From NCBI GenBank assembly GCA_964647905.1, contig CAZYJR010000008.1:47823-111822 (forward strand): a stretch of DNA of 64,000 bases, written 5' to 3'. The notes below the pieces were generated by a model. It was not told where the DNA came from. It did no database searches and saw nothing but the letters and a program-made list of their open reading frames with translations. The stretch is from an uncultured Desulfobacterales bacterium (GTDB taxonomy: Bacteria; Desulfobacterota; DSM-4660; Desulfatiglandales; HGW-15). Positions 2,709-35,822 of the stretch are shown piece by piece (positions within the stretch are counted from its first letter, which is position 1; the number at the start of each line of letters is the position of its first letter). The position numbers and the translations under genes were made by a program.

Positions 2709-2719
2709 GAGGATACACG

Positions 2720-4590: not shown

Positions 4591-4615
4591 ACTTCGGGGA
4601 GGAGAATAATAATCG

Positions 4616-5296
4616 ATGAAAGCATCAAGAGAGCGGCTTCTTGACCAGGAAAACGCAAGAGCGGTGGTTTATCGACAATTGGCCGACGCCTTTCGCGTAC
4701 CGTCGGAGGCATTGTTCGAGGGACTGAAGGAAATGGCCGCTGCACTAGAGCTACTGGATTCCGAAGCCTGGGGAGACGCCGCGCGACTGGCGGCCGGCCG
4801 CTATGACGATCCGGATGATCGCCTCGAGATAAAGATCGACCATGCAGCGCTTTTCATGGGGCCCTTCCTGGCACCGGCTGCACCTTACGGATCGGTATAC
4901 CTTGAAGACCAACGCCGGCTGATGGGTGCTTCGACCGTGGATGCAAGGCGGCATTACCTCAGCTTGGGGTTGGATCTGTCACCGGACTTCAAGGAAGCGC
5001 CGGATCACATTTGCGCCGAGCTGGAGTTCATGCATGTGCTGGTCCATCGGGCGATTGGGGCCGTCGAGACCCTTGACCGGGAGTTGCTGGCGAAGAGCGT
5101 CCGTCAACAGAGCATCTTTCTTGTAAAGCACCTTGGGACATGGGCGCCGGCCTTTGCGCACCAGATCCTCCAGCACGCCCAAACCGGCTACTACCGGAAT
5201 TTGGCCGCAGTGCTCGAAACGTTTGTGGCCGAAGAGATGGAAGCCCTCCCTGATCTGAAGAATCTGCAGCCGGCGCCCCGCTCGGCAGCCGGCTGA
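4616..5296 (+). CDS. TorD/DmsD/NarJ-family redox-enzyme maturation chaperone
   Basis: 226 aa with SD GGAGGAG. Contains the family-typical PDHICAELEFMHVL segment and sits in the chaperone position of the operon. Confidence 0.8.
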   Translation: MKASRERLLDQENARAVVYRQLADAFRVPSEALFEGLKEMAAALELLDSEAWGDAARLAAGRYDDPDDRLEIKIDHAALFMGPFLAPAAPYGSVYLEDQRRLMGASTVDARRHYLSLGLDLSPDFKEAPDHICAELEFMHVLVHRAIGAVETLDRELLAKSVRQQSIFLVKHLGTWAPAFAHQILQHAQTGYYRNLAAVLETFVAEEMEALPDLKNLQPAPRSAAG

Positions 5297-10882: not shown

Positions 10883-10896
10883 TTGACTTAGGTCAA
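10883..10896. promoter_or_regulatory. CRP/FNR-type palindrome TTGACTTAGGTCAA (copy 1 of 5)
   Basis: Exact 14-mer, intergenic, upstream of the xdhC remnant and fmdE paralog. Confidence 0.6.
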
Positions 10897-10900
10897 AGAC

Positions 10901-11098
10901 ATGGAGCGACGGCTCCTTAAGATGGAACCAGAGGACAGGACGATTCCTGCACAGGGGCCCGGGCGGGGAAGCGCTGCACCCATCGGCCTGGATATCGGTG
11001 CCGACACGCCCGGCGAGACGGCAGTGGCCATAGCGGCTGAATTGATCCAGGCACGCCGCAGACCCCTTTCTCCCGAAACGGAGAGGATAGGAGGGTGA
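10901..11098 (+). pseudogene. C-terminal remnant of an XdhC/CoxI-family Mo-cofactor insertion protein
   Basis: Only 65 codons. APIGLDIGADTPGETAVAIAAELIQ matches the conserved XdhC C-terminal block. The N-terminal roughly 200 aa are missing. Confidence 0.5.
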
Positions 11099-11100
11099 TC

Positions 11101-11748
11101 ATGGAAAGAACCGCCCGGCGCCTAGCCGGCGCCCCCCTGGCGGGGACAATCGGGGAATACACGTTCGCCCGGTTCAAGAAAAAGGTGGAGGCCTTTCACG
11201 GCGCGCCCGCCCCGGGGATTCTCATCGGAGGCTACATGGTGGTGCTGGCGAGATCCATGCTTCCGCCGGGGACGCTGTTCGAGGCGCTGGTCGAAACATC
11301 CAAGTGCCTGCCCGACGCGGTGCAGCTGCTGACCCCGTGCAGCACCGGGAATCGCCGCATGAAGGTCGTAGACCTCGGACGCTACGCCCTGACTCTCTAC
11401 GATAAGGTCAATGGAAAAGGCAGGCGCGTATCCATCGATCTTCAACTGCTGGCCGACTGGCCGGAGATTCGTGATTGGTTCATGAAGCTCAGGCCTAAAA
11501 GGGAGCAGGACACCGATCGATTGCTCATGGAGATCGAACAGGCCGGCGAAGCATTCCTGGCCTGCGAGCCCGTTCAGATCAAAGAACCGTGGCTTCAAAA
11601 AGAGTCTATAGGAGAGATCGGAATCTGCCCTATGTGCCGGGAGGCCTACCCCAAGAACCACGGACCTTGCTGCCGCGGCTGCAACGGCGGCGCCCCCTTT
11701 CGTCCCCTGGAATCCGGAGGCAAAGGGACCTTGTCAATCGCCTCATGA
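11101..11748 (+). CDS. FmdE/FwdE-family protein with C-terminal zinc ribbon (paralog of 5317-6009)
   Basis: ATG 5 nt after GGAGGG. FHGAPAPGILIGGYMV motif; C-terminal CPMCRE...CCRGC. Confidence 0.7.
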   Translation: MERTARRLAGAPLAGTIGEYTFARFKKKVEAFHGAPAPGILIGGYMVVLARSMLPPGTLFEALVETSKCLPDAVQLLTPCSTGNRRMKVVDLGRYALTLYDKVNGKGRRVSIDLQLLADWPEIRDWFMKLRPKREQDTDRLLMEIEQAGEAFLACEPVQIKEPWLQKESIGEIGICPMCREAYPKNHGPCCRGCNGGAPFRPLESGGKGTLSIAS

Positions 11749-11939: not shown

Positions 11940-11953
11940 TTGACTTAAGTCAA
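11940..11953. promoter_or_regulatory. CRP/FNR-type palindrome TTGACTTAAGTCAA (copy 2 of 5)
   Basis: Perfect 14-bp palindrome 76 nt upstream of the CBS-gene ATG. A TGnGCTAT -10-like element lies about 30 nt downstream of its centre (class II geometry). Confidence 0.6.
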
Positions 11954-15741: not shown

Positions 15742-16412
15742 GAAGAGGCATGGTCATCGATCTCGAGAGCTGTATAGGGTGCCGTTCATGCGCGGTTGCG
15801 TGCAAGGAGCACAATGCCCAGCCGCCCGGGAACTGGTGGAACAGGGTCATGTCCCCCGGGAGCCACCGCCATCTCACGCCGCCGGAAAAAGGACGGATGT
15901 ACTTTCTCCCTGTCCACTGCCAGCACTGCGAGAACGCCCCCTGTGAAAAGGTCTGCCCGGTGGACGCCACCTACCGCTCGGACCAGGGGGAGATCCTGGT
16001 GGACTTCGAGCGGTGCATCGGGTGCCGCTACTGCATGGCCGCCTGCCCTTACGGCGTCCGGCAGTTCAATTGGGAAGAGCCGAAAAAGGCCGTCCGCAAG
16101 TACGAGTATCAAAACGGCTACGTCTACGGACACCCCCGGGAATACCGCCTGAAAGGGCGGCTCGTCTATATGCCTTTCCGATTCAAAGGGGTGGTCGAAA
16201 AGTGCAACTGCTGTGTTCATTACAAGGATCAAGGGCTGGAGCCCGCCTGCGTGCGGGGGTGCCCAGGAAATGCGCGGCACGTGGGCGACCTGGACGATCC
16301 GGAAAGCGAGGTGTCCAGAATGATCCGGGATAAGAACGGTTTCAACCTCTTGCCGGAGAAGGGGACGAGACCCAATGTGTTCTATCTCCCCCCGAGAAGG
16401 AAGGAGGTCTAG
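15738..16412 (+). CDS. 4Fe-4S ferredoxin-type beta subunit (short, DmsB/PsrB-like)
   Basis: In-frame ATG at 15738 overlaps the alpha stop (ATGA). Four Cys clusters (CIGCRSCAVAC, CQHCENAPCEKVCP, CIGCRYCMAACP, CNCCVH...CVRGCP). Confidence 0.85.
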   Translation: MRRGMVIDLESCIGCRSCAVACKEHNAQPPGNWWNRVMSPGSHRHLTPPEKGRMYFLPVHCQHCENAPCEKVCPVDATYRSDQGEILVDFERCIGCRYCMAACPYGVRQFNWEEPKKAVRKYEYQNGYVYGHPREYRLKGRLVYMPFRFKGVVEKCNCCVHYKDQGLEPACVRGCPGNARHVGDLDDPESEVSRMIRDKNGFNLLPEKGTRPNVFYLPPRRKEV

Positions 16413-16415
16413 GGC

Positions 16416-17645
16416 ATGAGAAGCATCAAGAATTGGGCGATTCTGGCAAGCGGCCTCCTAATAGTGGTAGGGGCCATGGCCTGGATTTATCAATACAGAG
16501 AAGGACTGATGGTAACCAACATGAGGAACTCTTACTCATGGGGACTTTATGTCTCGGGGCTCGCCTTCTTTGTGGGCAACGCCGCCGGAGGGCTGGTGCT
16601 CACCTCACTGATTTACGTCTTCGGCCTGACTCACCTCAAGCCCTTTGCAAAGATAGGCGCTCTTACCGCCTTTGCCAATGTCACCGCGGCCATGCTCTCC
16701 ATACTCCCGGACATAGGACAACCGATCCGCCTCTACAATTTGCTGCTGCACCCTCAGCTCGCATCCCCCTTGATCTGGGACATCGTCATCCTGAATCTCT
16801 ACGCGGTGCTCTCCCTGCTCTACCTCTACCTCCTGATCCTCCCGGATCTCAAGGGGCGGCTCGGGAGGCTGGCCTTGAAAGTGGATGACCCTGCGGCGTT
16901 CTCCGAGAAATGGGTCAAGCGCCTGGCCCCGTTTTCTCTGGTGGCCGCGGTGGGAATCCACGTGATAACGGCCTGGATCTTCGCCACCCAGGGGGCCAGG
17001 GACTGGTGGAACTCGGCCGCGCTCGCCCCGGATTTCCTTGCGGCTGCCCTGGCCTCCGGGACCGCGGTGGTCCTGCTTGTTTCCCTGTTTGCTTACGGCG
17101 TCAAAGAAAAACATGCCCGCGCATATCGCACTATGGGTATTTTTATATCCGTTTCTTTGTTTATACATTTCTTCCTGATGTATAATGATTTTTTCATACA
17201 TGCCTGGTATGGCGCGTCTGAGGCCTTGTCCACCCTGTCCGTCACCCTGAAGGATTACGGAGCGGCCCACGCCTTTGAAACGGCCGCCCCGCTCTTGGCC
17301 GTTCTTCTATTTCTCTCCGCGAAGACCAGGCAGCGTGCGTGGGCCCTGGCCTCCGGCTGCCTGCTGGTGCTCTCGGGCGTCTTTGTCCATCGCTTCCTGC
17401 TGATGCCCGCCGCCTTCGACAGAATACCGCTCTCCTTTGAGCCGCTGGGGCTCCAGCACACTGACTGGGCGATGCCCATAGCCTCGGGGCGGTATGGCGA
17501 GGGGCTGGATGTCTTTGTCACCAAGTGGCATTACTTCCCGAGCGCAATAGAGTGGGCGGTGTTCCTCGGGGTCCTTGCCTACGTGAGCATCCTCCTCCTC
17601 ATCGCCGTCGACCGACTTCCGATTCTGAGCAGGGAGGGATCATGA
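16416..17645 (+). CDS. NrfD/PsrC-type membrane anchor subunit
   Basis: 409 aa, polytopic, SD AGGAGG. Same architecture as 3445-4590. Confidence 0.8.
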   Translation: MRSIKNWAILASGLLIVVGAMAWIYQYREGLMVTNMRNSYSWGLYVSGLAFFVGNAAGGLVLTSLIYVFGLTHLKPFAKIGALTAFANVTAAMLSILPDIGQPIRLYNLLLHPQLASPLIWDIVILNLYAVLSLLYLYLLILPDLKGRLGRLALKVDDPAAFSEKWVKRLAPFSLVAAVGIHVITAWIFATQGARDWWNSAALAPDFLAAALASGTAVVLLVSLFAYGVKEKHARAYRTMGIFISVSLFIHFFLMYNDFFIHAWYGASEALSTLSVTLKDYGAAHAFETAAPLLAVLLFLSAKTRQRAWALASGCLLVLSGVFVHRFLLMPAAFDRIPLSFEPLGLQHTDWAMPIASGRYGEGLDVFVTKWHYFPSAIEWAVFLGVLAYVSILLLIAVDRLPILSREGS

Positions 17646-18268
17646 TGGATCGAGCCGCTCTCAAAGAAGACCTCAAGGCCTTGTCCGCGCTTTTCAGCTA
17701 CCCGACTCGACCGCACTCCCTGGGGGACCTCAAGAGGGCGGGCCTCATGGAGGTGGGGAATGGCCGGCCGCCGGTGGGAACCACCGGGCTCCGAACCCTT
17801 CAAAACGCCTATGTGCGCCTGTTCATAAACGCCCTCCCGGAAATCCCCTGCCCGCCGTACGGCTCTTTCCACCTGGAAGGAACGCTAATGGGGGTCTCCA
17901 CCCTGCGCATCCGGGATCTCTACGCGGCATACGGCTTTCAGACCCGGGAGATGCCGGATCACATAGCGGTGGAGCTGGAATTCCTCCACCTTCTGACCCA
18001 CCTACTGCCCGTTGGGGACCTCGAGGTGAGGCAGGATCACGCATTCCTCTTGGAGCACCTCAGGCTGTGGTCCCCCGCCTTTTTCGAAGGTGTGGAGGTA
18101 AGTGACGAAAGCGGCTTCTACGCGGGAGTCTGCAGATTCGCCGGTTCCGTGCTCCAGGCCGATTTCATGGATGAAGCAGAGCTTCTGAGCATGCACTATC
18201 CTCCTGAGACCGGGACCGGCAGCTTGATTATGCACCGGGCCCCTTTATCGGGAACGGGCTCGAGATAG
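17642..18268 (+). CDS. TorD/NarJ-family chaperone
   Basis: ATG at 17642 overlaps the upstream stop (ATGA). PDHIAVELEFLHLL motif. The last roughly 30 codons run into a foreign antisense remnant, so the C-terminal end is uncertain. Confidence 0.7.
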   Translation: MMDRAALKEDLKALSALFSYPTRPHSLGDLKRAGLMEVGNGRPPVGTTGLRTLQNAYVRLFINALPEIPCPPYGSFHLEGTLMGVSTLRIRDLYAAYGFQTREMPDHIAVELEFLHLLTHLLPVGDLEVRQDHAFLLEHLRLWSPAFFEGVEVSDESGFYAGVCRFAGSVLQADFMDEAELLSMHYPPETGTGSLIMHRAPLSGTGSR

Positions 18269-23950: not shown

Positions 23951-24544
23951 ATGAAACACAACGAGCTGCGAAGCATTCAGAAACTCTATTTCGGCTACGA
24001 GGAATTGGCCAGGGCCCTGAGCATCAGCGCGGCCTCGGCCCGGGTCGCGGCCAGCCGCTACGTCAAGCAAGGCCTGCTCGTGCGGGTGAAACGAAACGTG
24101 TACGTAAGGCGTGACGTCTGGGAATCCTCCGACCGGGAGCAGAGATTCTTGCTGGCCAACCTGGGGCAGGTGCCCTCTTATATCTCGCTGATGACGGCCC
24201 TGGACCACACCGATTTGACCACGCAGCTTCAACGGGAGGTCATCGAATCCGTCACCCTTAAGCGGACCCGTGAGATCCGGGTCGAAGAGACCCTTTTCAA
24301 ATACACCAAGATATCCGGCTCTCTCTATTCCGGCTTTGTCAAAGAAAAAGGGGGCTTCATTGCGCTCCCGGAAAAGGCCCTACTGGACGCCATGTACCTG
24401 ACGTCCCTGGGCCGCTATTCCCTGGACCTCTCCGCTATTGACCGCTCGAAGCTGGACCTGGAGCGGCTCAAGACCTTGAGCACTCCGTTTCCCTCGAGAA
24501 CGAAGCAGACCCTGGCGAAACATGGATACCTTTCAAAAGCATGA
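23951..24544 (+). CDS. AbiEi-family type IV antitoxin / transcriptional regulator
   Basis: 197 aa. N-terminal wHTH (ELARALSISAASARVAASRYVKQGLLVRVKRNVYV) and conserved LLANL...PSYISLMTAL block. Overlaps its AbiEii partner. Confidence 0.7.
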   Translation: MKHNELRSIQKLYFGYEELARALSISAASARVAASRYVKQGLLVRVKRNVYVRRDVWESSDREQRFLLANLGQVPSYISLMTALDHTDLTTQLQREVIESVTLKRTREIRVEETLFKYTKISGSLYSGFVKEKGGFIALPEKALLDAMYLTSLGRYSLDLSAIDRSKLDLERLKTLSTPFPSRTKQTLAKHGYLSKA

Positions 24545-25199
24545 GGCCTTTGAAATCGAGGTCCTCGACAAGATGCACCGAGCCAAGGGTTTGGAGCCGC
24601 TCGTCTTCGGCGGCGGGACCATGCTCAGGCTCTGTCACGAGCTGCCCCGGTACTCCGTGGATCTGGATTTCTGGGTGATCAAACCCTTAGACGAGGAGAC
24701 CTATCGCGACAGGCTTCAGCGTACGTTCGAAAAGGACTACGAGGTCACGGATGCGGAAATCAAGTACCACTCCATCCTCTTCGAGCTCAGGTCCAACAGG
24801 TACCCCAGACGCCTGAAAATCGAGATTCGCCGAACCCTTGAACACTGGGACTTGCAGGAGAAGATCGCCTTCTCCAAATACGCGACTCTGCAGGTCGCCC
24901 TGAAGGCGCACACCCTGGATCAGACTATGAAAAACAAGATTTCCTCCTTCCTGGACCGCAAGGAGATTCGGGACTGCTTTGACATGGAGTTCATGCTCCG
25001 GCGGGGTGTGGCGCTGCCACCCCTGGACGCCGCTGTCCTGCGCCGACTTCAGGCCGGAATCCAAGACTTGAGGGAGCGGGATTTCAAGGTGAAGCTGGGC
25101 TCCGTCCTGGAGAGCGGCATCCGTTCCTACTACATCTCTGAGGGCTTTTCCTTTCTGAAAGAGAAACTTCACGAAACCCTTGCCGCCTCAGAAAAGTGA
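24522..25199 (+). CDS. AbiEii/AbiGii-family nucleotidyltransferase toxin
   Basis: FGGGTMLRL...SVDLDFW (hGG...DxD NTase motif). 23-nt overlap with abiEi. Confidence 0.75.
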   Translation: MDTFQKHEAFEIEVLDKMHRAKGLEPLVFGGGTMLRLCHELPRYSVDLDFWVIKPLDEETYRDRLQRTFEKDYEVTDAEIKYHSILFELRSNRYPRRLKIEIRRTLEHWDLQEKIAFSKYATLQVALKAHTLDQTMKNKISSFLDRKEIRDCFDMEFMLRRGVALPPLDAAVLRRLQAGIQDLRERDFKVKLGSVLESGIRSYYISEGFSFLKEKLHETLAASEK

Positions 25200-25470: not shown

Positions 25471-27225
25471 TCAGGCGAGGATGGCCCGAAGGTCCTCATC
25501 CGGTGTGGAGATGGGCATGATGTTGTAGTTGTCCACCAGCACCTGGAGGACTTCAGGGGTGATGAAGGCCGGTAGGGACGGCCCGAGCCTCATATCCCTG
25601 ATGCCCAGGGACAGAAGGGTGAGCAGGATTGCCACGGCCTTCTGCTCGTACCAGGAGAGGACCAAGGACAGGGGGAGCTCGTTCACGCCGCAGTCGAAAG
25701 CCTCTGCCAGGGCCGTGGCGATCTGTATCGCCGAGTAGGCGTCGTTGCACTGACCCACGTCCAGGAGCCTGGGAAGCCCACCGATCTTGCCCAGCTTCTT
25801 GTCGAAGAACCTGAACTTCCCGCACGCCAAGGTCATCACCAGGCAGTCCTCGGGGATCTTTTCCACGAACTCATTGTAGTAGTTCCTGCTCGGTTTTGCC
25901 CCGTCGCAACCGGCCACCAGAAAGATATGCCTGATATCCCCTTTTTTGACGCCTTCGATCACCTTGTCAGCGACCCCCATGATCGTGTTCCGCGCAAAAC
26001 CGACCCAGACGGTCCCGCCGTCCACGTCATCCGGATAGCCGGGCAGGTCCAACGCCCTCTGGATCACCGGGGTGAAGTCCTTGTCCGCGATGTGGGGAAT
26101 ATCCGGCCAGCCCACCACACCCGTGGTGAAGATGTTGTCCTGATACGCCGGGCGCGGTCTTTGTATGCAGTTGGTGGTCATGAGGATGGCGCCCGGGAAT
26201 TGAGAAAACTCCCTCCCTTGATTCTGCCAGGCGGTGCCGAAGTGGCCGTAGAAGTGTGGATAGCGCTCTTTCAGCTTGGGATACCCATGACAGGGAAGCA
26301 TTTCGCCGTGGGTATAGACATAAATCCCCTTGCCGGCGCTTTGGGCGAGGATCTTATCCAGATCGAACAGGTCGTGCCCGGAGACCAGGACGGCCTTCCC
26401 CTTTTTTGCACCCAGGGGGACCTCTGTCGGCGTCGGGTGGCCGTAAGTCCCGGTGTTCCCCGCATCCAGCAATTCCATGGCCCGAAGATTGGTGCGGCCG
26501 CACTCGAGCACCAGCCCAAGCAGATCATTCGTTTTCAGGTCATTGTCCAGGGTGGCGGCCAGGCCCTTGTGAACCGCCTGATACACTTTGTCGTCCCTCT
26601 GGCCCAGTTCTCTGGCGTGGTAGGCATATCCGCATACCCCTTTGAGCCCGAAAAGAAGGGTGTGCCGGAGGGAGCGGATGTCGGGGGCCACGCCGGGATC
26701 GGACTTGAGACCGTAATCCTTGGCCTGTTCGATCATCCCCTCCCGAGTGGCCGCAGGTTGAAAGTCCGCCGCTGTTCCTGCAAGCATATCCTGCCGCAGC
26801 GAGGCAGGGATTTCCTTCTTTAGCCCCTCCCGGAGACGAACGGAGTCCTTGACCAAGGACTCGAGCCTCCCCGGGTCAAACTCCACGTTCGTCAGTGTGG
26901 CGAACATGGCCTTGCAGACGAACTGGTTCACGGCGTCGTCGTTTATCCCCGCTTTCTGAGCGGCCAAGGCGGAAAGGGACAAGCCTTTCAACGAATGCAC
27001 CAGCAGGTCCTGCAAGGCGGCCACATTGGGCTTCTTTCCGCACACACCTATTGTGGTGCACCCCCTGCCTCCCATTGTCTGCTCGCATTGATAGCAGAAC
27101 ATCTTTGTGTCCTGGGCGGCCCACAACTCCTTGGAGCCCAGCAAGGCGGGGCAAAAGGCTGAAGCCGCCACACCCATGGCACCTGTCTGAATGAATCTCC
27201 TTCTGGTTATCTCCTTTTTAAGCAT
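25471..27225 (-). CDS. hcp: Hybrid cluster protein (hydroxylamine/NO reductase) with N-terminal twin-arginine signal
   Basis: MFCYQCEQT...GVCGK N-terminal cluster motif and full-length Hcp body. The ATG at 27225 follows GGAGGG by 5 nt and adds MLKKEITRRRFIQTGAMGVAASAFCPALLG...LWA-AQ. Confidence 0.9.
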   Translation of the reverse strand: MLKKEITRRRFIQTGAMGVAASAFCPALLGSKELWAAQDTKMFCYQCEQTMGGRGCTTIGVCGKKPNVAALQDLLVHSLKGLSLSALAAQKAGINDDAVNQFVCKAMFATLTNVEFDPGRLESLVKDSVRLREGLKKEIPASLRQDMLAGTAADFQPAATREGMIEQAKDYGLKSDPGVAPDIRSLRHTLLFGLKGVCGYAYHARELGQRDDKVYQAVHKGLAATLDNDLKTNDLLGLVLECGRTNLRAMELLDAGNTGTYGHPTPTEVPLGAKKGKAVLVSGHDLFDLDKILAQSAGKGIYVYTHGEMLPCHGYPKLKERYPHFYGHFGTAWQNQGREFSQFPGAILMTTNCIQRPRPAYQDNIFTTGVVGWPDIPHIADKDFTPVIQRALDLPGYPDDVDGGTVWVGFARNTIMGVADKVIEGVKKGDIRHIFLVAGCDGAKPSRNYYNEFVEKIPEDCLVMTLACGKFRFFDKKLGKIGGLPRLLDVGQCNDAYSAIQIATALAEAFDCGVNELPLSLVLSWYEQKAVAILLTLLSLGIRDMRLGPSLPAFITPEVLQVLVDNYNIMPISTPDEDLRAILA

Positions 27226-27353
27226 TTCGTCCCTCCTTGGTGTTTAATTTACGGTTGCCGCCTCTCACAAAGGCGATGCCCAAAACGATGTTTCCAACAT
27301 GCACGGGCTTCCCCGGCCTTTGGTATAGGATAGAGAGACAAGAAATAAGCGCA

Positions 27354-27367
27354 TTGACTTAAGTCAA
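27354..27367. promoter_or_regulatory. CRP/FNR-type palindrome TTGACTTAAGTCAA (copy 3 of 5)
   Basis: Centre is about 135 nt upstream of the hcp ATG. Confidence 0.6.
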
Positions 27368-27568
27368 AGAGAGGCGACAAAAGAACGAACAGAGATGCTC
27401 GAGAAACGGTGAGGCCGTCTCGGGGGAGAAGAAGCGGAGGAACTTGGTCATGAACTTCCAGCAATTGATCTTGCTCCCGGTCATGGCCGACCCTCACGGG
27501 CTGTGTCTTGTCCTTGCAGGTAAGCAAGCCTGTGGAGGTTATGATGCCATGAAACGGGATCAAAGTCC

Positions 27569-27582
27569 TTGACTTAGGTCAA
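27569..27582. promoter_or_regulatory. CRP/FNR-type palindrome TTGACTTAGGTCAA (copy 4 of 5)
   Basis: Second copy in the hcp upstream region, about 350 nt from the ATG and just downstream of the metY stop. Confidence 0.5.
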
Positions 27583-27642
27583 CTATTCGCCCCGGGCACA
27601 AGACAACCCGCCTTCCGGTCCCTTAAACACGCCCGCCTGAGC

Positions 27643-28929
27643 TCAGGCGGCCGCCTCCAGGGCCTGGTCCACGTCCTCCAGGATGTCCCTCAAGTCCTCT
27701 ATGCCCACCGAGAGGCGCACCATGTCCGGCGTGATTCCCGCGGCCCTCTGGGCAGGCTCGGAGAGCTGTGAATGCGTGGTGCTGGCCGGGTGTATGGCGA
27801 GGGTCTTGGCGTCGCCCACGTTGGCCAAGTGGGAGATCAGTCGGAGCCTGTTGATGAAGCTCTCCCCTGCACTCCTGCCGCCGCGGATCCCAAAGACCAC
27901 CATGGCTCCGAATCCGCGTTGAAGCAGGCGGGCTGCCACAGGATTGGCCCTGTCCGAGGAGAGCCCGGGGTAGCGCACCCAGCTCACGCGAGGATGATTC
28001 TTGAGGTGCAGAGCGGCTTTTATGGCGTTCTCGCAGTGCCGCTGCATCCGTAGAGAAAGCGTTTCCAGCCCCTGGAGGAACATCCAGGCGTTGTCCGGAC
28101 TGATGCAGGCCCCCAGGTTCCGGAGCGGCACCAGTCGCATGCGCATGATGAAGGCCACGGGGTTCGATTCGCCCAGGTCTTGGGCGAATCGGATCCCGTG
28201 GTACGAGGAGTCCGGCTCGTTGAAAAGGCGGAACTTCTCGTCGGTCCAATCGAAGCGCCCTTTGTCCACCACGATCCCCCCTATGCCCGTACCATGCCCG
28301 CCGAGCCACTTGGTCAAGGAATGGACAACGATGTCCGCGCCGTGATCCAGGGGGCGGAGCAGGTAGGGTGTGGTGAATGTGGAATCAACGGCCAGGGGAA
28401 GATGGTGGCGGCGGGCGACTCGGGCCACTTCCGGGATATCCGTTACGTCCAGCACAGGGTTTCCTATGGTTTCTGCATAAAGAAGCCTTGTTTTGGAGTT
28501 CACGGCCCGGTCGAAGTTCTCAGGGTCCCCGGGGTCGACAAAGCGGACGGTTATGCCCAGCTCCGGCAGGATATCATTGAACATGGTGTAGGTCCCGCCA
28601 TAGAGGTTATTGGCCGAGACCACCTCATCCCCCCGGCCGCATACGTTGATAACCGTATAAAAAACCGCAGCGGTGCCGGAGGCGAGAGCCAATGCTCCCG
28701 CCCCTCCTTCGAGGGCGCTCATCCGCTGCTCCAAGACCTCCTGCGTGGGGTTCATTATCCTTGTGTAGATATTGCCCGGCTCCTTCAGGGCGAACAAGTT
28801 GGCTGCATGCTCGCTGTTCTTGAAGAGGTACGAGCTGGTGCGGTGTACCGGGACGCCTCTGGATCCGGTCTGATCCACAAGGGCCCCGGCGTGAAGGGCC
28901 AGGGTGTCGAATCGGTAATTCCCGCTCAT
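27643..28929 (-). CDS. metY: O-acetylhomoserine sulfhydrylase (PLP-dependent)
   Basis: MSGNYRFDTLALHAG start 9 nt after AGGAGG. SLTKWLGGHG contains the PLP Lys. Whole-length similarity to MetY/Cys-Met metabolism enzymes. Confidence 0.85.
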   Translation of the reverse strand: MSGNYRFDTLALHAGALVDQTGSRGVPVHRTSSYLFKNSEHAANLFALKEPGNIYTRIMNPTQEVLEQRMSALEGGAGALALASGTAAVFYTVINVCGRGDEVVSANNLYGGTYTMFNDILPELGITVRFVDPGDPENFDRAVNSKTRLLYAETIGNPVLDVTDIPEVARVARRHHLPLAVDSTFTTPYLLRPLDHGADIVVHSLTKWLGGHGTGIGGIVVDKGRFDWTDEKFRLFNEPDSSYHGIRFAQDLGESNPVAFIMRMRLVPLRNLGACISPDNAWMFLQGLETLSLRMQRHCENAIKAALHLKNHPRVSWVRYPGLSSDRANPVAARLLQRGFGAMVVFGIRGGRSAGESFINRLRLISHLANVGDAKTLAIHPASTTHSQLSEPAQRAAGITPDMVRLSVGIEDLRDILEDVDQALEAAA

Positions 28930-29069
28930 TTTTGAGGCTCCTCCTTTAAGAATTTTCACTTCTCAGATTCTACCACCTTGTGGTATGATGTATCAAGTCT
29001 TAAACCGAACCAAAGGATATCCGCCCCGGCGCGGTGACCCGGGACGTGGAGAGCACCGGAGAGAACCTG

Positions 29070-30896: not shown

Positions 30897-30910
30897 TTGA
30901 CTTAGGTCAA
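30897..30910. promoter_or_regulatory. CRP/FNR-type palindrome TTGACTTAGGTCAA (copy 5 of 5)
   Basis: Lies 119 nt upstream of the 31029 ATG (small protein plus RND efflux operon). Confidence 0.55.
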
Positions 30911-31028: not shown

Positions 31029-31328
31029 ATGCGCAAAGGGATGCCCTATACCGGATTGAAACCAGCGCAGCCGCTCCCGCCCGTCCTGGCATCAGCCGAG
31101 AAGGCGTTGCAGACGGGTGACATGGGGCCGCTCTCCGGTCTTTTGGCCGATGAAATGCATCAAGAGCTGGAGAGGCTCTTTGTCAAGGCCCGCGAAGCCA
31201 AGAAGCACAAGGACGAGAATCTGGCGGCGGGCCGGGAATGGGCGGACGCCTATGTCAAGTACGTGATCTACGTACACGGCCTCTATAAGACCATCAAGGC
31301 CGGGCCGGCCCACGGCGCCGGTGAGTGA
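31029..31328 (+). CDS. Small hypothetical protein (99 aa)
   Basis: SD AAAGGAGAAGAG. PYTGLKPA...AGREWADAYVKYVIYVHGLY resembles, from memory, the C-terminal half of a DUF6448-like family. No signal peptide is present. Confidence 0.45.
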   Translation: MRKGMPYTGLKPAQPLPPVLASAEKALQTGDMGPLSGLLADEMHQELERLFVKAREAKKHKDENLAAGREWADAYVKYVIYVHGLYKTIKAGPAHGAGE

Positions 31329-31350: not shown

Positions 31351-32727
31351 ATGCGAGGACACATGAATCGATTGATCAAGCTGGTTTTGACCATCCTGCC
31401 GGTCGCAGCGGCAGCCGCCCTGACCGCCTACCTGGTCGCGAACCGCCCTGGCCCGGAGAAGAAACCAAGGGGCGAGGAGGTCAGGACGCTGAGGGTGATC
31501 AAGGCGCCCGCCCCGGATCTGGTTCCCAGGGCTACCGGCTACGGCGTGGCCGAGCCCGGGGAGGTGTGGGAGGCGGTGGCCGAGGTCAAGGGGACGGTTG
31601 CGGAAGTCCACCCGCGTCTAAGCTCGGGCGAGTTGATCCGGGGGGACAGTGTGCTGGTCCGATTGGATCCGGCCGAGTATGAGCTTGCAATCGCACGTCT
31701 GGAGGCCGCCCTTGAAGAGACACGAGCGAAGATAAAGGAGCTTTCCGGCGAGGCGGAGAACATTGAGCGGCTGCTTGCCGTCGAGAGGAGATCTCTGGAC
31801 CTGGCCCGGAAATCGTTCGACAGGAAGCGGACCCAGGCGCAGCGAGGCGTCATGTCCCAGGACGAGGCGGACCGAGAGGAAAGAGCGTTTCTCCAGCAGC
31901 AGCAGAAGGTACGGGAGCTTGAAAACACCCTCTCTTTGATCCCGTCGAGACGGAGGGCCTTGAACGCGGCCCTTGCCGTCCATGAGGCGGACCTTGAAAG
32001 GGCGAGGCTGGACCTTTCAAAGACAACCATAAGGGCCCCTTTTGACTGCCGGCTGGGAGAGGTCAAAATCGAACCCGGCCAATTCCTTCGTGCGGGACAG
32101 ACCCTTTTCAAGGCCCACGGGACCTCGGTCACTGAGGTGGAGGCGAGATTCAGGGCCGAGCAGATGCGCAATCTCCTGGGGGAGGAGAAGCGCAGGCGGT
32201 TTCAGACCGGGGTGGGCATAGAGACATTCGCCCGAATCTTCGAAGACATGAAGGTCCTGGTACGCCTGGAGAGCGGTGAGTGGTCGGCCGAGTGGGAGGC
32301 GCGTATCGACCGGGTCCGGGAGGAGACGGACCCGGGGACCAGAGACGTCAAGGTCATAGCGGCGGTCGACCGCCCTTACGAAAAGGCGGTCCCCGGCGAG
32401 CGCCCTCCCTTGACCGCAGGCATGTTCTGCGAGGTGGAGATCCGGGCGCCGGCGCGTCCGGGGAGCATCATATTGCCCAGGTCCTCAGTTCACACTGGCG
32501 GCGTCTTTGTCCTGGACCGGGAGCAGCGCCTGCGTAAGAGAGAGGTGGTTGTGGATTTCGCCCAGGGGGATTTCGTGGTGATCCTATCAGGCTTGGAAGG
32601 CGGCGAGACGGTGGTGGTATCCGACCCTTCTCCGGCGATCATCGGAATGAAGGTCTCGCCGGTCTTGGATGAGGACCTCCTGCAGCGGCTCCTGGCTCAA
32701 GGCAGGGGTGGAGAGGGAACCCCATGA
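31351..32727 (+). CDS. Efflux RND periplasmic adaptor (HlyD/MFP family)
   Basis: N-terminal TM anchor, long coiled-coil hairpin region, and beta-barrel C-terminus. 4-nt overlap with the pump gene. Confidence 0.85.
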   Translation: MRGHMNRLIKLVLTILPVAAAAALTAYLVANRPGPEKKPRGEEVRTLRVIKAPAPDLVPRATGYGVAEPGEVWEAVAEVKGTVAEVHPRLSSGELIRGDSVLVRLDPAEYELAIARLEAALEETRAKIKELSGEAENIERLLAVERRSLDLARKSFDRKRTQAQRGVMSQDEADREERAFLQQQQKVRELENTLSLIPSRRRALNAALAVHEADLERARLDLSKTTIRAPFDCRLGEVKIEPGQFLRAGQTLFKAHGTSVTEVEARFRAEQMRNLLGEEKRRRFQTGVGIETFARIFEDMKVLVRLESGEWSAEWEARIDRVREETDPGTRDVKVIAAVDRPYEKAVPGERPPLTAGMFCEVEIRAPARPGSIILPRSSVHTGGVFVLDREQRLRKREVVVDFAQGDFVVILSGLEGGETVVVSDPSPAIIGMKVSPVLDEDLLQRLLAQGRGGEGTP

Positions 32728-35700
32728 TCCGCCTTTTCACCGCGCATCCCACCGCCGCGAACCTGCTGATGATCTCATTCCTAGTGGCGGGTGTGCTCAG
32801 CACCCCGCACATCCTCCGGGAGACCCAGCCGGACTATGCCCCGAGCGAAGTCGAGATTCGCATCAGATACCCCGGGGCCACCGCCGGAGAGGTGGAGGAG
32901 GTGGTATGCAGGAGAGTGGAAGACGCCCTTGACGGGATCAGCTTCGTCGAAGAGGTGCGGTCCGACGCGCGGGAAGGGCTTGCCTCCATCGTGGTGGAGA
33001 TGAGCGACGCGGGCGAGATCCTGACCTTTCTGAACGATATACAGACCGAGGTGGACGCCATAGACGATTTCCCGGCGGAGGTGGAAGACCCGATAATTAC
33101 CGAGCTAGGCCGGACCGATCCGGTCATGTCTCTCTTGGTCTCCGGGCCCATGAGCCTGCCGGATCTCAAGGCCTACTCCGAAGACCTGAAGGACCGGATG
33201 CAGGAAGCCGGAATTCCGCTGATCGATATCACGGGGTTCTCGGAGCACCAGCTCCGGGTCTCCCTCTCCGGCGATGCGCTCAGGCGCCTGGGGCAGGGCG
33301 CGGCGCAGGTGGCCGAGCGCATCGCCGCCCAGAGCAATGACATGCCCCTGGGTACCATTGAAACCAGGGAGACCGAGATCCTTCTCAGGTTCGTGGACCA
33401 GCGCCGGACGCCCGAAGAGCTTGAAAACCTGGTCATACTGGCCGGTCCCGAGGGGGGCGAGGTCCGGCTCGGCGACATCTCCAGGGTGGAGGACCTCTTC
33501 GAGCCAGCTGAAGAAAAGGTCGTGGTCGGGGGGAGCAGGAGCGCTCTATTGAATGTCTGCAAGACCAAGGAGCAGGACTCCATACGGATCGCCGAGCAGG
33601 TCAAGGCCTTCATCCGGGACGAGCGCCTCCGCCGCCCCCGGGTGGAGCTCACCGTCACCCAGGACCAGACCGGCATCCTCGAGGACCGGCTGGAGATGCT
33701 GCTCAAGAACGGCGTACAGGGGCTTATACTGGTATTCGCCGTCTTGTGGCTCTTCTTCGGGGGCCGGATCTCATTCTGGGTGGCCCTGGGACTGCCGGTC
33801 TCCTTTCTGGGCGCGTTCATCCTGGTCCCGCACCTGGGGCTCAGCATCAATATGTTCACCATGGTGGGTATGCTGATGGCCCTGGGGCTGTTGATGGATG
33901 ACGCGATCGTAATCGCCGAGAACATCATGGCCCACAGACACAGGGGCAAGTCCCCGCTCCAGGCGGCGGTGGACGGCACCAGGGAGGTGGCACCGGGCGT
34001 TGTCTCGTCATTCATTACCACCGCCTGCATTCTGGGGCCGCTTGCCTTTGTGGGGGGTCAGATAGGAAAGGTCCTCCGGGTGGTCCCCATGATGCTCATC
34101 CTGGTCTTGGCGGTCAGCCTGATAGAGGCCTTTTTGATCCTCCCCGCCCACCTCAACCACGCCCTCCACGGCATAAAGGAAAACAAGGCAGGCCGTTTCA
34201 GGCGGGCCTTTGACGCCTCGTTCGCCTGGGTGCGCGACCGCCTCCTAGGAGGGGCCGTGGAGGTGCTCCTCAGGTGGCGATACCCTTTCCTGGGCCTTGT
34301 GACCTCCGTATTCATACTCTCGCTGGGCATGGTGGCATCCGGGAAGATCAAGTTCCAGGGGTTCCCGGAGCTCGAAGGCGACGTGGTCCTGGCGCGCCTG
34401 CTGCTCCCCCAGGGCACCCCGCTCTCCCGCACCGAGGGTGTGGTGAATCGCGTGCTGGAGGCCCTGGATCGCACCAATGAAGAGTTCAAGCCCAAACAGC
34501 CCGAAGGAGAGGATTTGGTTCGAAACGCCTATGTCCAGTACAACCTGAACACCGAGGCTTTGGAGAGCGGGCCCCATGTGGCCACCGTCACGGTGGATCT
34601 CCTTACCGCTGAAAGACGTACCGGCACCATAGAGGGATATCTGGCAACCTGGAGAAGGGAGATCGGCGATCCGCCGGACGTGCTCAGTCTCACCCTGGGC
34701 GAGCCCGGGTTCGGGCCCGGCGGACGGCCCATCGAGGTCCGGGTGAGGGGAAGGGATCTGGAGGAACTGAAAAGGGCGGCGGCCGATTTGAAGCAGTGGT
34801 TCGGGGGCTTCGAGGGGGTGATCAACCTGGCCGACGACCTCAGGCCGGGCAAGCCCGAGCTTCGCATGAAGATGCGTGAAGGGGCCTACGGGATGGGGAT
34901 CGATGCCGAGACAGTCTCCCGGCAGCTCAGGGCCTCGTTCCAGGGCGCGGTGGCCGATGAGATCCAGGTGGGCCCTGAATCCTACGAGATCGAGGTCCGT
35001 CTCGCCGGAAAAGATCGCGACAGCCTGGCCCGAATAGAAGACTTCGACCTCTTTCTTCCGGACGGGACCCGGGTCCCCCTGAGTTCGGTGGTCTCCTGGG
35101 AGGAGGCGAGAGGCTGGGCCAGGATCGCGCGGTTCAACGGAATGCGGGCGGTGACTCTGAGGGGCGACGTGGACACCCGGCTCATAAACACCAACGAATT
35201 GATGCGGCTCTTCAACGACACCTACCTGCCCGAGTTCAAAGAGACCTACCCCGAACTCGAGCTCTCCATCGCCGGATCCCTGGAGGAGACCAACACCACC
35301 CGCAAGTCCATGCTGAGAGCCATGATGATAGGGTTCATCGGGATCTTCATACTGCTGAGCTTCCAGTTCAGGACCTATACCGAGCCTTTCATAGTCATGT
35401 TGGCTATACCCTTTTCCCTGATCGGCGTGGTTTGGGGTCACGGCCTCATGGGCGTTCCCATCAGCATGCCCAGCCTGCTCGGCTTCATCGCTCTCGGCGG
35501 AGTGGTGGTCAACGACTCCATACTCCTGGTCATGTTCCTCAAGACCGCAAGGAGGGAAGGGCTCTCCCTCCACCAGGCCGCGGCCCGGGCCAGCCGGACG
35601 AGATTCCGGGCCGTGCTCCTGACCTCCTCCACCACCATCGCCGGCCTCCTGCCCCTCCTGTTCGAGAAGAGCCTGCAGGCCCAGATCCTGATCCCCCTGG

Positions 35701-35822
35701 TGATCAGCACCGCGTTCGGCCTGATGGCCAGCACCGTGCTGGTGCTCCTGGTGATCCCCTGCATGTACCGTATCCTGGGCGACTTGGCGCTGACTGAGGA
35801 GGTGGGCATTGCGGGGCGTTGA
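32724..35822 (+). CDS. Efflux RND permease (AcrB/CzcA superfamily)
   Basis: 1032 aa with 12-TM topology and two large periplasmic loops. No outer-membrane factor gene follows. Confidence 0.9.
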   Translation: MIRLFTAHPTAANLLMISFLVAGVLSTPHILRETQPDYAPSEVEIRIRYPGATAGEVEEVVCRRVEDALDGISFVEEVRSDAREGLASIVVEMSDAGEILTFLNDIQTEVDAIDDFPAEVEDPIITELGRTDPVMSLLVSGPMSLPDLKAYSEDLKDRMQEAGIPLIDITGFSEHQLRVSLSGDALRRLGQGAAQVAERIAAQSNDMPLGTIETRETEILLRFVDQRRTPEELENLVILAGPEGGEVRLGDISRVEDLFEPAEEKVVVGGSRSALLNVCKTKEQDSIRIAEQVKAFIRDERLRRPRVELTVTQDQTGILEDRLEMLLKNGVQGLILVFAVLWLFFGGRISFWVALGLPVSFLGAFILVPHLGLSINMFTMVGMLMALGLLMDDAIVIAENIMAHRHRGKSPLQAAVDGTREVAPGVVSSFITTACILGPLAFVGGQIGKVLRVVPMMLILVLAVSLIEAFLILPAHLNHALHGIKENKAGRFRRAFDASFAWVRDRLLGGAVEVLLRWRYPFLGLVTSVFILSLGMVASGKIKFQGFPELEGDVVLARLLLPQGTPLSRTEGVVNRVLEALDRTNEEFKPKQPEGEDLVRNAYVQYNLNTEALESGPHVATVTVDLLTAERRTGTIEGYLATWRREIGDPPDVLSLTLGEPGFGPGGRPIEVRVRGRDLEELKRAAADLKQWFGGFEGVINLADDLRPGKPELRMKMREGAYGMGIDAETVSRQLRASFQGAVADEIQVGPESYEIEVRLAGKDRDSLARIEDFDLFLPDGTRVPLSSVVSWEEARGWARIARFNGMRAVTLRGDVDTRLINTNELMRLFNDTYLPEFKETYPELELSIAGSLEETNTTRKSMLRAMMIGFIGIFILLSFQFRTYTEPFIVMLAIPFSLIGVVWGHGLMGVPISMPSLLGFIALGGVVVNDSILLVMFLKTARREGLSLHQAAARASRTRFRAVLLTSSTTIAGLLPLLFEKSLQAQILIPLVISTAFGLMASTVLVLLVIPCMYRILGDLALTEEVGIAGR

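What the first reader, a model, noticed from the sequence alone, without database searches (positions are those of the whole stretch)
25471..27225. Hybrid cluster protein carrying a strong twin-arginine export signal
The canonical Hcp N-terminus (MFCYQCEQT...) begins at residue 42. The ORF starts 41 codons earlier at an ATG with an optimal GGAGGG SD. That extension encodes MLKKEITRRRFIQTGAMGVAASAFCPALLGSKELWA-AQ, which has a T-R-R-x-F-h motif, a hydrophobic core and an AxA-like cleavage site. Hcp is, to my knowledge, treated as a cytoplasmic NO/hydroxylamine reductase. A Tat-exported version would move this chemistry to the periplasm, next to two Tat-exported Mo enzymes encoded here.
Basis: partly seen in the sequence, partly recalled or inferred. 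Interest (0 to 1): 0.55.

Follow-up and report, generated by a model that had tools for sequence, protein, structure and literature searches.

The report
Hybrid cluster protein with Tat signal
This is an intact nitric-oxide/hydroxylamine-reducing iron-sulfur enzyme (Hcp) that, unlike every studied Hcp, carries a conserved export signal, so it is probably sent fully folded to the periplasm in a small clade of uncultured sulfate-reducer-type bacteria.

Summary
ORF 25471-27225 (minus strand, 584 aa) is a complete class I hybrid cluster protein (Hcp). It is preceded by 41 residues that form a textbook twin-arginine (Tat) signal.

The extension is not a start-codon artefact:
- 39 of 39 members of one Hcp clan carry a homologous 41-47 aa signal. 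Four more species representatives in GTDB genomes carry it too.
- The nearest 542-aa Hcps have in-frame stops just upstream of MFCYQCE.
- The strong Shine-Dalgarno sits at the extended ATG, and the one before the ancestral Met has decayed.
- The conserved HcpR/FNR-type box TTGACnnnnGTCAA lies upstream of the extended start.
- Substitutions in the signal fall mostly on third codon positions.
- The mature domain of the clan has shifted by about +15 net charges.

Most likely it is a Tat-exported, signal-peptidase-cleaved periplasmic NO/hydroxylamine reductase under nitrosative-stress control. The gene is monocistronic and no conserved redox partner is encoded nearby, so the periplasmic electron donor is unknown.

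I found no paper describing a Tat or periplasmic Hcp. Databases simply call these proteins "hydroxylamine reductase". Verdict: a real feature and a new variant of a known enzyme, of moderate interest. Export itself is untested.

The parts
25471..27225 (-). Full Tat-Hcp precursor ORF (584 aa plus stop)
   Evidence: An identical protein (P0001) occurs on 4 public contigs.
27231..27238 (-). Shine-Dalgarno AAGGAGGG, 5 nt before the ATG at 27225
   Evidence: Duplex energy with the anti-SD is -11.9 kcal/mol, against -4.0 before the internal Met.
27118..27225 (-). Predicted Tat signal peptide, residues 1-36. It has an n-region (MLKKEI), the twin-arginine motif TRRRFIQ, an h-region (TGAMGVAASAFCPALLG), and a c-region (SKELWA) with a basic residue and an L-W-A cleavage-type site.
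   Evidence: The AlphaFold model has pLDDT below 50 for residues 1-46, with a lone helix at 8-24.
27187..27207 (-). Twin-arginine motif T7-R8-R9-R10-F11-I12-Q13. The family consensus is [ST]-R-R-x-F-I-K. R8 and R9 are invariant and K13 is present in more than 90% of members.
27103..27117 (-). Short linker (AQDTK) between the predicted cleavage site and the ancestral Met42
   Evidence: The linker is 5-9 residues across the family, with a mode of 8.
25471..27102 (-). Hcp catalytic body (residues 42-584), class I. Cubane Cys are C44, C47, C56 and C62. Hybrid-cluster ligands are H284, E308, C353, C440, C468, C493 and E527 (plus K529).
   Evidence: alignment to E. coli Hcp (7de4), with all listed residues invariant in alignment A1.
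27354..27367 (.). Proximal FNR/HcpR-type palindrome TTGACTTAAGTCAA, centred about 135 nt upstream of the ATG
   Evidence: The motif matches the published delta-proteobacterial HcpR consensus (PMC1274295).
27569..27582 (.). Distal FNR/HcpR-type palindrome TTGACTTAGGTCAA, centred about 350 nt upstream of the ATG

Best explanation
The gene encodes a class I hybrid cluster protein made as a precursor with a cleavable twin-arginine signal peptide.

Proposed mechanism (inferred):
1. The [4Fe-4S] cubane and the [4Fe-2S-2O] hybrid cluster are inserted in the cytoplasm.
2. The folded holo-enzyme is exported by the Tat translocase.
3. Signal peptidase I cuts after the conserved A/V/S-x-A/G site (here L-W-A | A). 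This leaves a mature protein that begins only about 5 residues before the canonical MFCYQCEQT.
4. In the periplasm the enzyme performs normal Hcp chemistry: NO to N2O, and/or hydroxylamine to ammonium. It would intercept reactive nitrogen species before they cross the membrane.
5. Electrons come from a periplasmic carrier that is not encoded next to the gene, most plausibly the multihaem cytochrome c pool or a quinol-linked Fe-S module typical of Desulfobacterota.
6. Expression is driven from an HcpR/FNR-type activator site, as for cytoplasmic hcp genes, so it belongs to the nitrosative-stress response.

Shown here: the sequence anatomy, the conservation of the signal, the position of the start codon, SD and regulator box, intact catalytic residues, and the charge shift of the mature domain.

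Inferred: export, cleavage, substrate, electron donor and regulator identity.
For: Enzyme identity
- Full-length Hcp with all cluster ligands.
- Class I Cys spacing C-x2-C-x8-C-x5-C, read directly from the sequence.

The signal
- The motif TRRRFIQ fits the Tat consensus.
- TIGR01409 hits the extension at 20.6 bits (cutoff 16.7) and 21 of 27 family N-termini. PF10518 hits 15 of 27.
- All 39 unique family N-termini have an [AVSTLGI]-x-[AG] site 5-9 residues before the Met, with a mode of 8.
- The signals align almost without gaps, with M1, R8, R9 and P26 invariant.

Distribution
- In an NJ tree of 120 core sequences the signal-bearing proteins form one clan, separate from the remaining 81 proteins, which start at or within a few residues of MFCYQCE.
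- The only two apparent exceptions carry the extension in their DNA. One had been called at the internal Met and the other is cut by a contig end.
- In cytoplasmic-type loci, in-frame stops lie mostly within about 40 codons upstream of MFCYQCE (a few upstream frames stay open longer), and no upstream frame encodes a Tat-like extension.

The true start
- SD strength at the extended ATG averages -9.8 kcal/mol (n=12). That equals the -9.9 at the start of cytoplasmic-type genes (n=70).
- The internal Met averages -4.2, against a background of -2.6.
- The TTGAY-N4-RTCAA box occurs upstream of 12 of 12 Tat-type and 45 of 71 cytoplasmic-type hcp genes. Its density is 1.9 per kb there versus 0.022 per kb elsewhere.
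- In Tat-type genes the box sits 80-200 nt upstream of the extended ATG. It is the only invariant element of the upstream regions.
- The motif equals the published HcpR consensus (PMC1274295 and PMC545781).

Selection and adaptation
- In three homologue pairs the signal-coding DNA is 67-68% identical, with differences concentrated at third codon positions (24, 22 and 20). The 129 nt upstream are at random-level identity of about 30%.
- Mature-domain pI is 7.98 and net charge +4.0 in the Tat clan, versus 5.69 and -11.6 in its cytoplasmic sisters (Mann-Whitney p=7e-16). The shift is spread over the whole protein.

Host capacity
- The host encodes other RR-signal Mo enzymes and TorD-type chaperones.
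Against: - There is no experimental evidence of export or cleavage for any member.
- Dedicated predictors (SignalP 6, TatP) were not available.
- Pfam TAT_signal is below its gathering score for this protein (15.2-19.6 vs 22.7). TIGR01409 falls to 15.5 (cutoff 16.7) when the whole protein is scanned.
- No periplasmic electron donor is encoded beside hcp in the window or in seven homologous loci, and the contexts all differ.
- This particular protein shows only a mild charge shift (pI 6.2, net -4.3).
- Met42 is invariant in the clan although it should no longer be needed as an initiator.
- No HcpR/CRP-family gene was found among the window ORFs scanned.
- The charge and tree statistics are not corrected for shared ancestry.
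Confidence: 0.72

Rival explanations
1. The Tat signal is used for translocation but is not cleaved. It would then act as an N-terminal membrane anchor, as in the Rieske protein, giving a membrane-tethered Hcp that faces the periplasm and could take electrons from a membrane quinol-oxidising module.
For: - The uncharged stretch after the RR motif is 15-26 residues long, enough to span a membrane.
- There is a weak hit to the Rieske Tat-anchor model UCR_Fe-S_N, at E=0.0034 on the extension alone.
- A membrane-proximal position would explain why no soluble partner gene is conserved.
Against: - A small-x-small site is conserved in 39 of 39 signals at a fixed distance before the mature N-terminus.
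- The h-region is rich in Gly, Ala, Ser and Thr, with a mean Kyte-Doolittle value of about 1.2. That is typical of cleaved Tat signals rather than of anchors.
- UCR_Fe-S_N hits only 1 of 27 members.
Confidence: 0.12
2. Dual localisation. Translation starts both at Met1 (exported form) and at the retained ancestral Met42 (cytoplasmic form), so one gene supplies both compartments.
For: - Met42 is invariant in all 31 aligned Tat-type proteins.
- SD-like pairing before the internal Met is slightly above the background of other internal ATGs (-4.2 vs -2.6, p=0.02). It reaches -8 to -9 kcal/mol in two loci.
Against: - The mean internal SD is far weaker than at true starts (-4.2 vs -9.8 and -9.9).
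- The small excess can be explained by the purine-rich Lys/Glu/Gly codons of the linker.
- In this window the pairing is only -4.0.
- The charge shift of the mature domain argues for adaptation to a single new compartment.
Confidence: 0.08
3. The extension is an annotation artefact or a non-functional relic. The real protein would start at Met42 and be an ordinary cytoplasmic Hcp.
For: - At least one public annotation of a clan member starts at the internal Met (P0055).
- Every solved Hcp structure starts at MFC.
Against: - The signal is conserved in 39 of 39 clan members, with an invariant RR and a cleavage-type site.
- Substitutions show a third-position bias.
- The SD and the regulator box are positioned for the upstream ATG.
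- Cytoplasmic-type genes have stops immediately upstream, so an open upstream frame is not the default state.
Confidence: 0.03
4. The protein is exported, but its role is not NO detoxification. It could be a respiratory or assimilatory periplasmic hydroxylamine reductase working downstream of a periplasmic nitrite- or hydroxylamine-producing haem enzyme. It could also be a carrier that co-exports a signal-less partner by hitch-hiking.
For: - Hcp reduces hydroxylamine in vitro. Models with periplasmic hydroxylamine production followed by Hcp exist for Nautilia (PMC2628731).
- The physiological substrate of Hcp is debated (PMC10949509).
Against: - No nrf, hao or partner gene is linked to hcp in any locus examined.
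- The regulatory box is the one associated with the nitrosative-stress hcp regulon. In one homologous locus it also precedes a hemerythrin-polyferredoxin pair.
Confidence: 0.05

Closest known systems
[quoted passage not shown]
   Same: - Same fold and domain order, aligned end to end from residue 39-42 on (E 1e-142 to 1e-155).
- Same N-terminal C-x2-C-x8-C-x5-C cubane motif.
- Hybrid-cluster ligands intact, checked residue by residue against the E. coli Hcp alignment and invariant across the clan.
- The closest sequence relatives, at 68-71% identity, are 542-aa cytoplasmic-type Hcps of Desulfobacterota MAGs.
   Different: - All of these start at MFC with no presequence and are treated as cytoplasmic.
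- This protein and its clan add a 41-47 aa Tat signal.
- The clan carries about 15 more positive net charges on the mature domain.
Escherichia coli Hcp-Hcr (class II; PDB 7de4)
   Same: Best-scoring solved structure (543 bits). Same catalytic residues. Also induced under nitrosative stress.
   Different: - Class II N-terminal Cys spacing with a protrusion that docks the NADH-dependent reductase Hcr.
- Cytoplasmic, and encoded in an hcp-hcr operon.
- Here there is no hcr or other partner gene, and the Cys spacing is class I (PMC10502027).
Tat-exported Fe-S and Mo enzymes of anaerobes (NapA, DMSO-reductase-family enzymes, periplasmic hydrogenases and formate dehydrogenases)
   Same: - The logic is the same: cofactors are inserted in the cytoplasm and the folded protein is exported through Tat with an S/T-R-R-x-F-L-K signal.
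- Two such enzymes are encoded in this window.
- 11 of 27 Hcp signals also match the 'formate dehydrogenase region TAT target' model.
   Different: - The cargo is an Hcp, which I found in no paper as a Tat substrate.
- No dedicated TorD/NapD-type chaperone or partner subunit accompanies the gene.
HcpR regulon of delta-proteobacteria (FNR-like site wyTTGACnnnnGTCAArw)
   Same: Two perfect TTGACnnnnGTCAA sites lie upstream of hcp. The site is conserved in 12 of 12 Tat-type and 45 of 71 cytoplasmic-type loci.
   Different: The regulator gene itself was not found in the window. Binding by HcpR, rather than by another FNR-family protein, is inferred.

Membership tests
Hybrid cluster protein / hydroxylamine reductase (Hcp; PF03063, TIGR01703, NF003658) | Full-length match to the family models above their curated cut-offs | tested here: met
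   NF003658 785.9 bits (cutoff 367), TIGR01703 734.7 bits (cutoff 360.8), PF03063 538 bits (cutoff 27). The matches cover residues 42-583 and model positions 1 to the end.
Hybrid cluster protein / hydroxylamine reductase (Hcp; PF03063, TIGR01703, NF003658) | Ligands of the hybrid [4Fe-2S-2O] cluster (His, Glu, 4 Cys, Glu) | tested here: met
   H284, E308, C353, C440, C468, C493 and E527 align with H249, E273, C317, C405, C433, C458 and E492 of E. coli Hcp. All are invariant in the 31-sequence alignment. The E. coli ligand numbering is from my own knowledge.
Hybrid cluster protein / hydroxylamine reductase (Hcp; PF03063, TIGR01703, NF003658) | N-terminal four-Cys motif for the cubane cluster, with class I spacing C-x2-C-x8-C-x5-C | tested here: met
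   C44, C47, C56 and C62, read from the sequence. The gaps relative to class II E. coli Hcp are visible. The class definitions are in PMC10502027.
Hybrid cluster protein / hydroxylamine reductase (Hcp; PF03063, TIGR01703, NF003658) | NO reductase / hydroxylamine reductase activity | not testable with these tools
   Needs purified enzyme.
Twin-arginine (Tat) signal peptide | S/T-R-R-x-F-L-K-type motif after a short polar n-region | tested here: met
   T-R-R-R-F-I-Q at residues 7-13. The family consensus is [ST]RRxFIK, with invariant RR.
Twin-arginine (Tat) signal peptide | Moderately hydrophobic h-region followed by a c-region with a small-x-small peptidase site | tested here: met
   The h-region is 15-19 residues in most members (median 18), with a mean Kyte-Doolittle value of 1.23. 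A basic residue lies before the site in 24 of 44 signals. An [AVSTLGI]-x-[AG] site is present in 39 of 39. Not a lipobox, because position -1 of the Cys is F, M or L.
Twin-arginine (Tat) signal peptide | Score above the curated cut-off of a Tat-signal model | tested here: inconclusive
   TIGR01409 scores 20.6 bits on the extension alone and 18.2 bits on residues 1-81 (cutoff 16.7), but 15.5 bits on the full protein. PF10518 scores 15.2-19.6 bits, below its 22.7 cutoff. Across the family, 21 of 27 (TIGR01409) and 15 of 27 (PF10518) match at E<=0.01.
Twin-arginine (Tat) signal peptide | Tat-dependent export and cleavage | not testable with these tools
   Requires reporter fusions, fractionation or N-terminal sequencing.
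HcpR (CRP/FNR-family) regulon | FNR-like palindrome TTGACnnnnGTCAA upstream of hcp | tested here: met
   Sites at 27354-27367 and 27569-27582. The window holds 5 sites against 0.12 expected. The site is conserved across loci. The consensus is from PMC1274295.
HcpR (CRP/FNR-family) regulon | Presence of an hcpR gene and NO-dependent activation | tested here: inconclusive
   No cNMP-binding/HTH_Crp protein was found among the window ORFs scanned. The rest of the genome is not available.

The most novel reading that the evidence does not exclude
A monophyletic, previously undescribed clade of class I Hcp in Desulfobacterota is a genuinely periplasmic NO/hydroxylamine reductase. It would be exported with both Fe-S clusters by Tat and fed by the periplasmic cytochrome or quinol-linked electron pool. 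Nitrosative-stress defence would then begin outside the cytoplasmic membrane. The clade would also offer a tractable way to identify the long-unknown electron donor of class I Hcps.
Probability: 0.5. Interest if true: 0.62.

Novelty: new variant of a known kind. Interest (0 to 1): 0.52.

Why it matters
Hcp is one of the most widespread anaerobic nitrosative-stress enzymes. In every studied case it is cytoplasmic: models of NO and hydroxylamine handling place it inside the cell (for example PMC10949509 and PMC2628731).

A periplasmic version would change where NO or hydroxylamine is consumed in these sulfate-reducer-type bacteria. It would add a second extracytoplasmic N-oxide reductase alongside NrfA-type enzymes. 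It would also add a new class of cargo to the list of Tat substrates.

The redox partner of class I Hcps is still unknown (PMC10502027). A form confined to the periplasm narrows the candidate donors.

There is also a practical point. Gene callers sometimes truncate these genes to the internal Met, and databases label them plainly as 'hydroxylamine reductase'. Metagenomic N-cycle inventories therefore miss the difference in compartment.

Tried and rejected
1. Conserved partner gene. Gene contexts of the window copy and seven homologues share no neighbour. Cytochrome c fragments or polyferredoxins appear in single loci only. Operon-encoded donor rejected.
2. A second large protein search with an alignment of the N-termini (A2) returned only short fragments of 153 aa or less. 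About 16 were further Tat-Hcp fragments. It gave no cultured organism and no better count.
3. Cluster look-up for organism names gave only 'Desulfobacteraceae / Deltaproteobacteria bacterium' MAG labels.
4. Lipoprotein reading of the conserved Cys-Pro in the h-region: rejected. Residues -3 to -1 do not fit a lipobox, and several members lack the Cys.
5. Clade-specific catalytic changes. Only two near-fixed differences separate the Tat clan from its sisters (L236 and G425), and neither is a ligand.
6. Rfam scan of the 420-nt upstream spacer: nothing credible. The sigma-70 promoter scan found none.
7. Search for an hcpR gene in the window: none among the candidate ORFs.
8. Seven full-text literature searches, plus reading of the candidate papers, found no description of a Tat-signal or periplasmic Hcp. 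Hagen's 2022 review is not held in the library, so a mention there cannot be excluded.
Full report
OBSERVATION

The ORF 25471-27225 is on the minus strand and encodes 584 aa. The ATG at 27225 is preceded by AAGGAGGG five nucleotides upstream. An in-frame TAA lies seven codons upstream, so this is the only possible start ahead of the RR motif.

Residues 42-583 match hydroxylamine reductase/Hcp models end to end: NF003658 786 bits, TIGR01703 735 bits, PF03063 538 bits.

The first 41 residues are MLKKEITRRRFIQTGAMGVAASAFCPALLGSKELWAAQDTK. They contain a T-R-R-R-F-I-Q motif, an uncharged Gly/Ala/Ser-rich stretch, a Lys in the c-region, and an L-W-A/A site.

Scanned alone, the extension scores 20.6 bits on TIGR01409 (cutoff 16.7) and 19.6 on Pfam TAT_signal (cutoff 22.7). 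Within the full protein the scores are diluted to about 15 bits.

The finding did not give the strand.

IS THE EXTENSION REAL?

A search of the 90%-clustered protein collection returned thousands of Hcps. Among the best 120, 37 have a 41-47 aa N-terminal extension with [ST]RRxF/LIK, an h-region and a small-x-small site directly before MFCYQCEQT. The other 83 start at or within a few residues of MFCYQCEQT.

An NJ tree of the core domains places all extension-bearing proteins on one side of a single split. The only exceptions were P0055 and P0072. Their DNA shows that both encode the extension:
- P0055 had been called at the internal Met. Upstream in frame it reads MKDEITRRSFIKAGAVTVAATALCPSILGSTNAFGLTPEQGNK.
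- P0072 is cut by the contig end.

So 39 of 39 clan members carry the signal.

A scan of GTDB species-representative genomes added four more, all Desulfobacula, Desulfobacterium or Desulfobacteraceae MAGs: L023, L026, L028 and L032. In the cytoplasmic-type loci an in-frame stop usually lies within about 40 codons upstream of MFCYQCE. A few upstream frames stay open longer, but none encodes a Tat-like extension.

The signals themselves align nearly without gaps. M1, R8, R9 and P26 are invariant and K13 is present in more than 90%. This indicates a single origin.

All 39 unique N-termini have an [AVSTLGI]-x-[AG] tripeptide 5-9 residues before the Met. The mode is 8, and AFG/AFA dominate.

TIGR01409 matches 21 of 27 aligned N-termini, PF10518 matches 15 of 27, and the formate-dehydrogenase-region Tat-target model matches 11 of 27.

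WHERE DOES TRANSLATION START?

Across 12 Tat-type loci with DNA, anti-SD pairing was compared at four kinds of site:

| Site | Mean pairing energy (kcal/mol) |
|---|---|
| Extended ATG of Tat-type genes (n=12) | -9.8 |
| MFC start of cytoplasmic-type genes (n=70) | -9.9 |
| Retained internal Met of Tat-type genes | -4.2 |
| Other internal ATGs (background) | -2.6 |

The ribosome-binding site has therefore moved to the new start.

In three homologue pairs the signal-coding DNA is 67-68% identical, with differences concentrated at third codon positions. The 129 nt upstream show random-level identity of about 30%. This indicates selection on the translated product.

The AlphaFold model (pTM 0.81) gives a confident Hcp body. 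Residues 1-46 are low-confidence and detached, with a single helix at 8-24.

REGULATION

Two perfect TTGACnnnnGTCAA palindromes lie upstream of the gene, at 27354-27367 and 27569-27582.

The degenerate box TTGAY-N4-RTCAA occurs within 400 nt upstream of 12 of 12 Tat-type and 45 of 71 cytoplasmic-type hcp genes. Its density is 1.9 per kb there against 0.022 per kb elsewhere in the same loci. It is the only invariant block in aligned upstream regions.

In Tat-type genes the box lies mostly 80-200 nt upstream of the extended ATG. That is the same distance it keeps from the MFC start in cytoplasmic-type genes. The promoter region therefore precedes the signal peptide.

The motif is the published FNR-like HcpR site of non-Desulfovibrio delta-proteobacteria (PMC1274295; PMC545781).

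The window contains five such boxes against 0.12 expected. The other three lie upstream of:
- an FmdE-like gene;
- the CBS gene that heads the second Tat-Mo-enzyme cluster;
- a DUF6448 gene followed by an RND pump operon.

In homologous locus L007 a box precedes a hemerythrin-polyferredoxin pair. No CRP/FNR-family gene was found in the window.

THE ENZYME

Every hybrid-cluster ligand is present: H284, E308, C353, C440, C468, C493 and E527. All are invariant in the clan. The N-terminal Cys spacing is class I.

The best solved relatives all align from query residue 39-42 onward, and none has a presequence. They are E. coli 7de4, M. thermolithotrophicus 8cnr, D. desulfuricans 1gn9 and D. vulgaris 1e2u.

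The mature domains of the Tat clan differ from their cytoplasmic sisters in bulk electrostatics:

| Group | Mean pI | Mean net charge |
|---|---|---|
| Tat clan | 7.98 | +4.0 |
| Cytoplasmic sisters | 5.69 | -11.6 |
| This window's protein | 6.2 | -4.3 |

The difference gives Mann-Whitney p=7e-16. It arises from many conserved acidic surface positions becoming neutral or basic all along the chain. This fits adaptation to a different compartment or partner. The test is not corrected for phylogeny.

CONTEXT

The gene is monocistronic. It lies between metY (27643-28959, same strand, 420 nt upstream) and a convergent AbiEi/AbiEii pair.

Seven homologous loci have entirely different neighbours. No redox partner is encoded in cis.

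One is 126-2708, ArrA-like, at 1271 bits (below the 1600 cutoff). The other is 13207-15741, DMSO-reductase type II-like. Each has an Fe-S subunit, an NrfD-type membrane subunit and a TorD-type chaperone. They lie 10-25 kb away from hcp. They show that the organism uses Tat for redox enzymes.

INTERPRETATION

The best-supported reading is a Tat-exported, signal-peptidase-processed periplasmic Hcp, expressed from an HcpR-type nitrosative-stress promoter (confidence about 0.7). It would reduce NO and/or hydroxylamine outside the cytoplasmic membrane, using an unidentified periplasmic donor.

Rivals:
- An uncleaved signal anchor (about 0.12). The conserved cleavage-type site argues against it.
- Dual initiation at Met1 and Met42 (about 0.08). 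Met42 is invariant, but its SD has decayed.
- An annotation artefact (about 0.03).
- A non-detoxifying role (about 0.05).

NOVELTY

Seven full-text searches and inspection of the candidate papers found no description of a Tat-signal or periplasmic Hcp. One paper explicitly uses the absence of Tat signals to place Hcp in the cytoplasm (PMC10949509). Another states that the partners of class I Hcps are unknown (PMC10502027).

Automated pipelines already attach PF10518 to a few of these proteins, so the architecture is visible in databases but uninterpreted. Hagen's 2022 review could not be read.

I classify this as a new variant of a known kind, of moderate interest. Export has yet to be demonstrated.

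Noticed in passing
window 10883-10896, 11940-11953, 30897-30910 (plus the two hcp sites): The FNR/HcpR-type box TTGAYnnnnRTCAA occurs five times in 64 kb, against 0.12 expected. Besides hcp, it precedes an FmdE-like gene (11095-11748). It also precedes the CBS gene (11966) that heads the DMSO-reductase-type-II-like Tat enzyme cluster (13207-18268). The third site lies upstream of a DUF6448 gene (31029-31328) followed by an RND efflux pump (31351-35822). This suggests a local regulon that links hcp to a periplasmic Mo enzyme.
   Followed up: partly
window 27226-27642: The 420-nt spacer between metY and hcp holds the two boxes. Between them lie a terminator-like hairpin (27401-27386, minus strand) and a 41-aa ORF (27484-27359, minus strand; MTGSKINCWKFMTKFLRFFSPETASPFLEHLCSFFCRLSLT) whose stop codon falls inside the proximal box. 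The distal box might drive a separate short transcript. Rfam found nothing there.
   Followed up: partly
L011 5872-7632 (NCBI MAG GCA_002840535.1, protein P0055): The public annotation of this clan member starts at the internal Met (543 aa), although a complete Tat signal with its own AAGGAGGGG Shine-Dalgarno lies in frame upstream. Tat-Hcps are therefore under-counted in protein databases.
   Followed up: yes
window 126-5296: ArrA/ArrB-like Mo enzyme cluster with an RR signal (TRRSFVKASAATGG), an NrfD-type membrane subunit and a NarJ/TorD-type chaperone. It scores 1271 bits on the ArrA model but stays below that model's 1600-bit cutoff, so the substrate is uncertain.
   Followed up: partly
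window 23951-25199: AbiEi antitoxin / AbiEii nucleotidyltransferase toxin pair, with overlapping genes, lying convergent with and immediately downstream of hcp.
   Followed up: no
L007 10545-12238: In a homologous Tat-hcp locus, another FNR/HcpR-type box precedes a hemerythrin-domain gene overlapping a Fer4_5 polyferredoxin gene. These are typical nitrosative-stress or repair genes and possible electron-transfer candidates.
   Followed up: no
window 53695-56409 (minus strand): A third molybdopterin oxidoreductase ORF (904 aa from a GTG). Its first roughly 200 residues look non-coding or Arg/Gly-rich and it has no Fe4S4 domain hit. The real start is probably further downstream.
   Followed up: no
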